The translations under genes and the position numbers were made by a program. This document shows, piece after piece, positions 15,649 to 16,398 of a DNA stretch of 64,000 nt. This DNA is from Octopus vulgaris (taxonomy: Eukaryota): contig OX597836.1 of the NCBI GenBank assembly GCA_951406725.2, positions 43,152,001 to 43,216,000 of the forward strand, written 5' to 3'. Each line of letters starts with the position of its first letter. Within the stretch, counting starts at the first letter, position 1. The notes under the pieces were generated by a model, which was not told the DNA's origin, made no database searches, and was given only the letters and a program-made list of their open reading frames with translations.

Positions 15649-16398
15649 ATGAGGTCCACAACTGCAACGATTATAATTGTAACAGTGTTCTGTATGTTCT
15701 TTAAACAGCGTGTAGAGGGCGCCGACAACATCCCTTCTGGTTCTCCCCTTCCACATCTTCTTCGTCTACCGGCGGGTTCCCCGGAAAGCAAACCAGCGAA
15801 TAACGCCGACGACAAATCGTATATCAGACTTTGGAAAAGGAAGTTGAAGGACGGCGTTAACTATGAATACACGTACCACAACCCCGTTAAGAACGGAGCA
15901 ATCAACCAGCAGGGCTCGGTGACGCTTTTTAAAACCAAAGATCCGAAAGGTGGTCAACCCAAATCTACGGGTTACTTGATTAGTTACCGAACAAGCGAAG
16001 ACTTCAGTTTCACCAATCCCCTTGACTCTGATTGGGACGTTGCTAACAGTCCTTATTACTACAACAATAACAACAAAAACACCAACAACAACTACTACCA
16101 GAGCCCGTACAAATACCGGACCGCTGACAATGTCGGTACTCCGTACAGCCATCCTTATTCGCCGGACCACCAACACAACGGAAATCCGGCGTTTCACGGC
16201 TATCGGCGACCGACGTCGTTAACAACGTCCCCACCTCATGCGACGGAGCCTCGGTGCTACGGTGAACGAAATTTCGGCTACAACAGCAACGTAATTTACT
16301 GCTGTATGTATGCCGACCGCCCTCAGCCTAGTTCTTCTCCTTACCCTAAACATGTCTGTTGGCGCCAACATATCACATGGGGCCGCCGCATGCAATAA
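15649..16398 (+). CDS. Gene A: secreted 249-aa protein/peptide precursor, Tyr/Asn/Pro-rich, with C-terminal C-CC-C segment and W-GRR end
   Basis: Non-repetitive, GC-richer ORF; polypyrimidine tract and TTTCAG acceptor at 15633 just before GTCATG; hydrophobic N-terminus ending VEG-A (signal-peptide-like); KRK, RR and GRR sites; AATAAA at 16394-16399 overlapping the stop. Confidence 0.8.
   Translation: MRSTTATIIIVTVFCMFFKQRVEGADNIPSGSPLPHLLRLPAGSPESKPANNADDKSYIRLWKRKLKDGVNYEYTYHNPVKNGAINQQGSVTLFKTKDPKGGQPKSTGYLISYRTSEDFSFTNPLDSDWDVANSPYYYNNNNKNTNNNYYQSPYKYRTADNVGTPYSHPYSPDHQHNGNPAFHGYRRPTSLTTSPPHATEPRCYGERNFGYNSNVIYCCMYADRPQPSSSPYPKHVCWRQHITWGRRMQ

What the first reader, a model, noticed from the sequence alone, without database searches (positions are those of the whole stretch)
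16201..16398. Candidate novel disulfide-bonded, Trp-amidated peptide at the C-terminus of gene A
Seen: after RR comes PTSLTTSPPHATEPR-CYGERNFGYNSNVIYCCMYADRPQPSSSPYPKHVCWRQHITW-GRR-MQ*, which holds all four Cys outside the signal peptide (C-CC-C); an earlier KRK site is also present. Established: G-R-R is the convertase/PAM amidation signal. Inference: a precursor of a secreted toxin-, pheromone- or hormone-like peptide that I do not recognise; alternatively a Tyr-rich structural protein.
Basis: partly seen in the sequence, partly recalled or inferred. Interest (0 to 1): 0.7.

Follow-up and report, generated by a model that had tools for sequence, protein, structure and literature searches.

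The report
Octopus secreted protein with conserved tryptophan tail
This is a real octopus gene for a protein that is likely secreted and has two conserved blocks; its distant relatives keep the four cysteines and the final tryptophan but lack the proposed cutting and amidation sites, so it likely works as one whole protein, possibly in beak or cuticle matrix, and not as a released peptide hormone or toxin.

Summary
It ends a 249-aa, single-copy ORF (15649-16398) that appears spliced and expressed and is listed as uncharacterised in O. bimaculoides and O. sinensis. The released-peptide reading mostly fails. Six distant homologues (about 33% identical, unnamed) keep C-CC-C and the last Trp but end W-stop or WE-stop: GRR in 0 of 6. 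The upstream RR is followed by Pro, reads QR in O. bimaculoides and is missing in all six. The best-conserved part is a Cys-free block at residues 58-120 (27 of 63 positions invariant, against 12 of 43 in the Cys module). No Pfam family or solved relative was found. The gene lies 32 kb from five secreted Gly/His-rich genes of beak-protein-like composition with the same gene layout. Best reading: an undescribed secreted matrix protein acting whole. Function and tissue are inferred, not shown.

The parts
15632..15633 (+). Splice acceptor AG; the single coding exon starts at 15634, 15 nt before the ATG
   Evidence: contigs of X1 and X8 match from 15633 and carry 18 and 17 unlike letters beyond it, X3 starts at 15634, while the genome-sized run X16 reads through from 15561. 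The upstream exon was not located.
15649..16398 (+). Gene A CDS, 249 aa (P0001)
   Evidence: orthologues XP_052832002.1 (90%) and XP_036355429.1 (one residue differs)
15649..15720 (+). Predicted signal peptide, residues 1-24 (cut after V-E-G inferred)
   Evidence: Hydropathy peak 2.77 at residues 7-17 and no later hydrophobic segment; G24 invariant. SignalP was not available.
15721..15819 (+). Variable spacer, residues 25-57
   Evidence: 1 of 33 positions invariant
15820..16008 (+). Conserved Cys-free N-block, residues 58-120, four predicted beta strands
   Evidence: 27 of 63 invariant, 44-51% identical to distant homologues; strands in two low-confidence models
15835..15843 (+). Basic triplet KRK (RKR in distant homologues) after invariant L-W; possible processing site or basic beta-strand surface
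   Evidence: Three basic residues in 9 of 9 sequences
16009..16251 (+). Asn/Pro/Tyr/His-rich linker, residues 121-201, predicted disordered, about 25 residues shorter in distant homologues
   Evidence: 8 of 81 invariant; pLDDT 23-28 over most of it
16204..16209 (+).
   Evidence: RR in 2 of 3 Octopus, QR in O. bimaculoides, 0 of 6 distant homologues
16252..16380 (+). Cys module, residues 202-244: C203, C218-C219, C237, ending in invariant C-W-x-Q-x-I-x-W
   Evidence: 12 of 43 invariant; three predicted strands
16381..16398 (+). Octopus-only tail G-R-R-M-Q-stop; candidate trimming and amidation signal; AATAAA overlaps the stop (16394-16399)
   Evidence: 3 of 3 Octopus, 0 of 6 distant homologues; codons and AATAAA
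48343..49029 (+). Neighbouring gene B, first of five secreted Gly/His-rich single-coding-exon genes (context, not homologous to gene A)
   Evidence: covered by contigs from its acceptor onward in X1 and X13

Best explanation
Gene A encodes a 249-residue octopus protein with a likely signal peptide, a conserved cysteine-free block and a conserved four-cysteine block ending in Trp, and it likely acts as one whole secreted protein, probably in a chitin-protein hard tissue such as the beak, rather than releasing a 57-residue peptide. Shown: the ORF, the two conserved blocks with a variable linker, single copy, loss of both proposed cutting signals in distant homologues, and the neighbouring Gly/His-rich cluster. 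Inferred: secretion; two disulfides; the two blocks forming one beta-rich domain whose invariant aromatic residues (11 of 39 invariant positions) and net positive charge (pI 9.1-9.9) bind polysaccharide or acidic matrix partners; the Tyr/His linker being available for cross-linking. In Octopus the GRRMQ tail is perhaps trimmed by a convertase, carboxypeptidase and PAM, so that the chain ends at Trp244(-amide), the residue at or next to which the homologues stop. That would be end-capping, not peptide release.
For: Conservation by region: N-block 27/63 invariant, Cys module 12/43, linker 8/81, tail 0/5. Against O. bimaculoides: 62/63, 42/43, 68/81, 5/5. GRR is absent in P0004-P0008 (end at W) and P0009 (ends WE). 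No dibasic pair lies just before the Cys module in O. bimaculoides or in any of the six distant homologues. P0005's only match in this genome is gene A, so the comparison is probably between orthologues. Both models place four strands in the N-block and three in the Cys module, with a disordered linker. Context: five Cys-free secreted genes with G+A+H of 42-57% and 4-13 GHG units start 32 kb away and share the layout of one coding exon with an acceptor 15-34 nt before the ATG. Squid beak HBPs have over 50% G+A+H (PMC11931252, passages) and form a buccal-mass-expressed cluster (PMC9068888, passages). Gene B is also covered in the 2 of 2 gene-A-holding runs laid.
Against: No tissue label exists for any run, so the beak or cuticle role rests on neighbourhood alone. 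Gene A is not homologous to the neighbours, has no HBP-like composition (G 6%, H 4%) and no Pfam chitin-binding match. The neighbours lack the canonical GHG[PVL][YH] repeat (0 of 5), and their homology to squid HBPs was not tested. The models are poor (mean pLDDT 37.6 and 47.0). A conserved basic triplet at 63-65 and a GRR placed exactly after the conserved Trp (0.1% per position by chance) look like the secretory processing of a signalling protein. The species of P0004-P0009 are unnamed; that they are squid or cuttlefish is my inference from their divergence.
Confidence: 0.45

Rival explanations
1. A secreted signalling protein: the N-terminal spacer is removed at the conserved W-[KR][KR][KR] site, leaving a folded ligand of about 180 residues (about 140 in the homologues) that is C-terminally amidated in Octopus only. 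The layout would resemble pro-protein ligands such as neurexophilin (layout recalled).
For: Basic triplet in 9 of 9 sequences right after a variable spacer. Single copy. Strong non-repetitive conservation. GRR sits exactly at the family's end point.
Against: The invariant Y58, L61 and W62 lie before the triplet and would be cut away, and both models run a strand through it. No Neurexophilin Pfam match and no N-glycosylation sequon in P0001. The position beside a structural-gene cluster is unexplained.
Confidence: 0.25
2. One reading: convertases cut at RR186-187 and GRR, releasing a 57-residue, two-disulfide, Trp-amidated toxin, pheromone or hormone (6.6 kDa).
For: All four mature Cys lie in this stretch. 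GRR is conserved in 3 of 3 Octopus. The C-CC-C framework also occurs in conotoxin alphaB-VxXXIVA (PMC3559828, passages). Cuttlefish SP precursors of similar length yield amidated peptides (PMC3484142, passages).
Against: RR is followed by Pro (disfavoured at P1'; recalled rule, not found in the one paper checked), reads QR in O. bimaculoides and is absent in 6 of 6 distant homologues. GRR is absent in 6 of 6. The N-block is more conserved than the peptide. There is no paralogue array or hypervariability (42 of 43 identical in O. bimaculoides).
Confidence: 0.1
3. A whole secreted defence or venom protein, for example a basic beta-sheet antimicrobial or membrane-active protein of skin, mucus or saliva.
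For: Basic pI (9.1-9.9) and long predicted strands.
Against: Single copy and slow change in both blocks; no family match.
Confidence: 0.1
4. A chance ORF, or a chance GRR on an untranscribed stretch.
For: G-dibasic occurs somewhere in 17% of shuffles; all run types are guesses.
Against: Homologues at 33% identity keep both blocks. Contigs break at the splice acceptor in three small assemblies but not in the genome-sized one.
Confidence: 0.02

Closest known systems
O. bimaculoides XP_052832002.1 (LOC128250619) and O. sinensis XP_036355429.1 / A0A7E6EJG0 (LOC118761529), both 'uncharacterized protein'
   Same: Orthologues, 249 aa, 90% and over 99% identical, same C-CC-C and GRRMQ end.
   Different: O. 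bimaculoides has QR in place of RR186-187. No function is assigned; 0 papers hold these identifiers.
Squid histidine-rich beak proteins (HBP1-3) and the D. pealeii HBP cluster (PMC11931252 and PMC9068888, passages read)
   Same: Secreted, cephalopod-restricted; gene A lies beside a tandem cluster of similar composition.
   Different: Gene A itself is not Gly/His-rich, has no GHG repeats, has four Cys and predicted beta strands, and is single-copy.
alphaB-conotoxin VxXXIVA, framework C-CC-C (PMC3559828, passages read)
   Same: Cys framework C-CC-C with similar loop sizes (15 and 11 residues, against 14 and 17 here and 10 and 10 in the distant homologues).
   Different: The conotoxin precursor is a signal plus a 40-residue peptide, and the peptide is disordered. 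Gene A carries about 175 residues before the module, including its most conserved block. Compared by eye only; no homology shown.
Sepia officinalis sex-pheromone precursors SPalpha and SPbeta (PMC3484142, abstract and passages read)
   Same: About 250 aa, secreted, cephalopod, with dibasic sites, amidated products and disulfides.
   Different: They yield five or six peptides with Cys spread throughout. No resemblance by eye to the printed peptides. Gene A has no conserved internal dibasic site after residue 65.
Neurexophilin (PF06312; layout recalled)
   Same: Signal, variable pro-segment, polybasic site, conserved central block, linker, Cys-containing C-terminal block.
   Different: No Pfam match, four Cys in a different pattern, no N-glycan sequon. 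Resemblance in layout only.

Membership tests
Precursor of a convertase-released, PAM-amidated peptide | Signal peptide | tested here: met
   Hydropathy only; SignalP not available
Precursor of a convertase-released, PAM-amidated peptide | Gly plus dibasic pair after the peptide, conserved in orthologues | tested here: not met
   Present in 3 of 3 Octopus, absent in 6 of 6 distant homologues
Precursor of a convertase-released, PAM-amidated peptide | Conserved cleavable basic site before the peptide | tested here: not met
   RR-Pro in 2 of 3 Octopus, QR-Pro in O. bimaculoides, none in 6 distant homologues
Precursor of a convertase-released, PAM-amidated peptide | Conservation concentrated in the mature peptide | tested here: not met
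   27/63 invariant in the N-block against 14/57 in the proposed peptide
Precursor of a convertase-released, PAM-amidated peptide | Amidated product detected by MS | not testable with these tools
   No peptidomics data
Conotoxin C-CC-C framework (alphaB-VxXXIVA type) | C-CC-C | tested here: met
   C203, C218, C219, C237; framework
Conotoxin C-CC-C framework (alphaB-VxXXIVA type) | Short precursor of signal plus mature peptide | tested here: not met
   249-aa chain with a conserved 63-aa block in front
Conotoxin C-CC-C framework (alphaB-VxXXIVA type) | Venom-gland expression | not testable with these tools
   Runs carry no tissue label
Histidine-rich beak protein (gene A itself) | Gly+Ala+His over 50% with GHG repeats | tested here: not met
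   G 6.2%, H 4.0% of the mature chain; criterion
Histidine-rich beak protein (five neighbouring genes) | Gly+Ala+His over 50%; GHG[PVL][YH] pentapeptides; homology to squid HBPs | tested here: inconclusive
   Composition met in 4 of 5, canonical pentapeptide in 0 of 5, G[PA]G[FY] in 3 of 5; no squid HBP sequence was available for alignment
Known chitin-binding domains (CBM_14, Rebers-Riddiford) | Pfam profile match | tested here: not met
   No such family at E up to 10 for the members or the two blocks
Known chitin-binding domains (CBM_14, Rebers-Riddiford) | Chitin binding | not testable with these tools
   Needs a bench assay
Neurexophilin | Pfam PF06312 match and N-glycosylation sequons (feature recalled) | tested here: not met
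   No match; no N-x-S/T in P0001
Neurexophilin | Fold | tested here: inconclusive
   6pnq_B at rank 42, Z 4.8, rmsd 4.9, 78 aligned, 4% identity, among generic beta sheets, from a pLDDT-38 model

The most novel reading that the evidence does not exclude
Gene A founds an undescribed cephalopod protein family with a split beta-sheet domain (a Cys-free half and a C-CC-C half joined by a variable linker). Octopuses finish its conserved terminal Trp by convertase and PAM amidation, while other lineages put the stop codon there. It would be the folded organiser that partners an unrecognised octopus beak-protein cluster, or a new class of large amidated ligand.
Probability: 0.2. Interest if true: 0.6.

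Novelty: new member of a known kind. Interest (0 to 1): 0.3.

Why it matters
As a new amidated toxin or hormone peptide the case is weak. As an undescribed, conserved secreted protein beside a Gly/His-rich cluster, it is a concrete candidate for a folded component of cephalopod hard tissue, where only chitin-binding and His-rich proteins are described (PMC11931252, passages). It also offers a clean natural test of whether C-terminal amidation of a whole protein can be gained or lost at a fixed Trp. The neighbouring cluster may matter more, since PMC9068888 reported no histidine-rich beak proteins in O. bimaculoides.

Tried and rejected
Family searches: Pfam and NCBIfam gave nothing credible (best E 0.037). 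The PDB sequence search with profile A1 gave 0 at E up to 10. ESM Atlas gave no usable hit for P0001 and a best score of 0.79 for P0005, which is chance level. Fold searches on two low-confidence models found nothing at Foldseek E up to 0.001; VIA best Z was 6.2 and 5.1 among generic beta meanders. The pore-former rows (Z up to 5.1) were rejected as common arrangements. None of this shows that the fold is new. A complex prediction of the N-block with the Cys module of P0005 gave no verdict (score 0.01, alignments not used). Paralogues: none in the genome with P0001, P0005 or the Cys module alone (other hits E 2.7 and 4.3), and none by profile in 464 kb. A PF06312 search of the genome gave no match, but its controls were also blank. 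JGI metagenome scan: 0 relatives among 584 pattern matches. No RNA holder was listed on record. Runs X21 and X23, which hold next to none of gene A's words, also gave no cover of gene B's coding exon; absence in contigs is not evidence. Depth values were not used to rank genes. Literature: 0 papers for five identifiers and 0 for five sequence motifs. Motif searches in the supplements of an octopus salivary-gland proteome (PMC7693380; file cut when stored, largely annotation tables) and a skin-mucus proteome (PMC10138644) found none; these are uninformative. Only 3,805 characters of the PMC9068888 supplements were held, so its tables of cephalopod-specific gene arrays, which may list this family, were not seen. 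The homologue search with residues 20-140 of a neighbouring Gly/His gene found none among 146 candidates. Gene B's upstream exon was not found. P0007 (P0005 with a 13-residue N-terminal extension) was left out of alignments A2 and A3 and of the per-region counts. Earlier scan findings: none near or alike; the eight listed concern other genes.

Full report
Observation. The quoted peptide is present at 16201-16398 on the + strand. It ends an ORF of 249 codons, 15649-16398. Cys lie at 15, 203, 218, 219 and 237, and dibasic pairs at 63-65, 186-187 and 246-247. Residues 7-17 form the only hydrophobic segment, consistent with a signal peptide cut after Gly24 (inferred; SignalP not available). A terminal G-dibasic motif arose in 0.5% of 100,000 shuffles.

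The gene is real. A TTTCAG acceptor ends at 15633. Of four runs laid, three small assemblies (76-88 million letters, guessed to be RNA) cover the exon as one contig that begins at the acceptor, and two of them carry 17-18 unlike letters beyond it. The 2.2-billion-letter run reads through into the intron. This fits a spliced transcript, though the upstream exon was not located and no run is on record as RNA. Orthologues are annotated as uncharacterised in O. bimaculoides (90%) and O. sinensis (one residue differs). The gene is single-copy in this 2.8-Gb genome.

A search of 1.84 billion representatives returned only P0002 and P0004 (E 2e-12). P0004's cluster has five members, and a profile search added P0009. 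These six are about 33% identical to P0001, 85-95% to each other within the first cluster and 65% to P0009. P0005's only match in this genome is gene A. All six keep C-CC-C and the terminal C-W-x-Q-x-I-x-W. Five stop at that Trp and one adds a single Glu, so GRR is present in 0 of 6. None has a dibasic pair just before the Cys module. In Octopus that site is RR-Pro in 2 of 3 and QR-Pro in O. bimaculoides. Pro at P1' disfavours convertase cleavage (recalled; the paper checked did not address it).

Conservation points away from the peptide. Over eight aligned sequences, invariant positions are: signal 3/24, spacer 1/33, N-block (58-120) 27/63, linker 8/81, Cys module 12/43, tail 0/5. Eleven of the 39 invariant residues in the two blocks are aromatic, against 13% of the mature chain. 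In a typical peptide precursor the spacer drifts and the peptide is kept (established knowledge); here the supposed spacer holds the best-kept part.

GRR is kept in all three Octopus proteins and begins on the residue right after the Trp where the homologues end. G[KR][KR] occurs at 0.1% of positions in local six-frame translation, so a random read-through is unlikely, although I noticed this after the fact. Convertase, carboxypeptidase and PAM action would leave Trp244-amide as the end of the whole chain. I put this trimming at about even odds. The amide cannot be essential to the family, since six homologues cannot make it.

Structure. AlphaFold2 on eight sequences gave mean pLDDT 37.6 (P0001) and 47.0 (P0005). 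Both models show four strands in the N-block, a disordered linker and three strands in the Cys module. This is a weak hint of one split beta-rich domain. No Pfam, NCBIfam or PDB sequence relative was found; the fold searches were inconclusive.

Surroundings. In 464 kb the other clear secreted single-exon genes are five Cys-free Gly/His-rich genes, starting 32 kb downstream and spanning about 93 kb. Four are clear paralogues (58-98% in the N-terminal part) and the fifth is marginal. They have G+A+H of 42-57% and 4-13 GHG units, and share gene A's layout, an acceptor 26-34 nt before the ATG against 15 nt in gene A. Squid beak HBPs have over 50% G+A+H and GHG-based repeats (PMC11931252, passages) and form a ten-gene cluster expressed in the buccal mass (PMC9068888, passages). 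The octopus genes lack the canonical pentapeptide, and homology was not tested. Gene B is covered from its acceptor onward in X1 and X13, two runs that also hold gene A; whole-animal libraries would give this without co-expression.

Mechanism. Most likely (0.45) the protein is secreted and acts whole in a chitin-protein matrix, with a basic, aromatic beta-rich domain closed by two disulfides and a flexible Tyr/His/Asn linker; in Octopus the tail may be clipped and amidated. Every functional step is inferred. My confidence that the 57-mer is not the functional unit is about 0.85; the matrix role is the weaker half.

Comparison and novelty. C-CC-C is also the framework of conotoxin alphaB-VxXXIVA (PMC3559828, passages), but the precursor layout differs. 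Sepia SP precursors are a precedent for amidated cephalopod pheromones but show no resemblance by eye (PMC3484142, abstract and passages). The gene models exist in RefSeq. No paper in the searched library holds their identifiers or five sequence motifs; subscription papers on beak, pen and cuttlebone proteomes and most supplements were not visible and may list it. It is an undescribed member of a familiar kind, a lineage-restricted secreted protein. Interest 0.3.

Noticed in passing
window 48343-49029 (+); G000:C23 43216949-43217731 (-), 43233155-43233973 (+), 43260591-43261223 (+), 43293022-43293639 (+): Tandem cluster of five secreted, Cys-free Gly/His-rich single-coding-exon genes ending in GH or GHY. 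Composition is like squid histidine-rich beak proteins, which PMC9068888 did not find in O. bimaculoides. No Pfam match and no database homologue for the part searched. Homology to squid HBPs untested; deserves its own follow-up.
   Followed up: partly
window 16394-16399: An AATAAA hexamer overlaps the last codon and the stop (CAA TAA A), which could constrain the tail independently of the protein; the X1 contig runs at least to 16490, so its use is unclear.
   Followed up: no
window 17605-18705 (-), 25412-26965 (+), 8678-9502 (-), 60159-60866 (+), 31008-31307 and 51953-52252 (+): Fragments that look like non-LTR retrotransposon RT/endonuclease ORFs and mariner-type transposases (recognised by eye).
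   Followed up: no
G000:C23 43003950-43004297 (-) and 43065146-43065718 (-): Open frames holding exon-like pieces that resemble a Cys-rich ephrin-receptor-like (GCC2/GCC3) repeat and a CUB domain, probably a large multi-exon extracellular-protein gene to the left of gene A (by eye).
   Followed up: no
window 15410-15565 and 49220-49330: High-copy short interspersed repeats, laid by thousands of contigs in every run; one sits in the intron just before gene A's acceptor.
   Followed up: no
window 49325-49347: Short interstitial run of TTAGGG-like units downstream of gene B.
   Followed up: no
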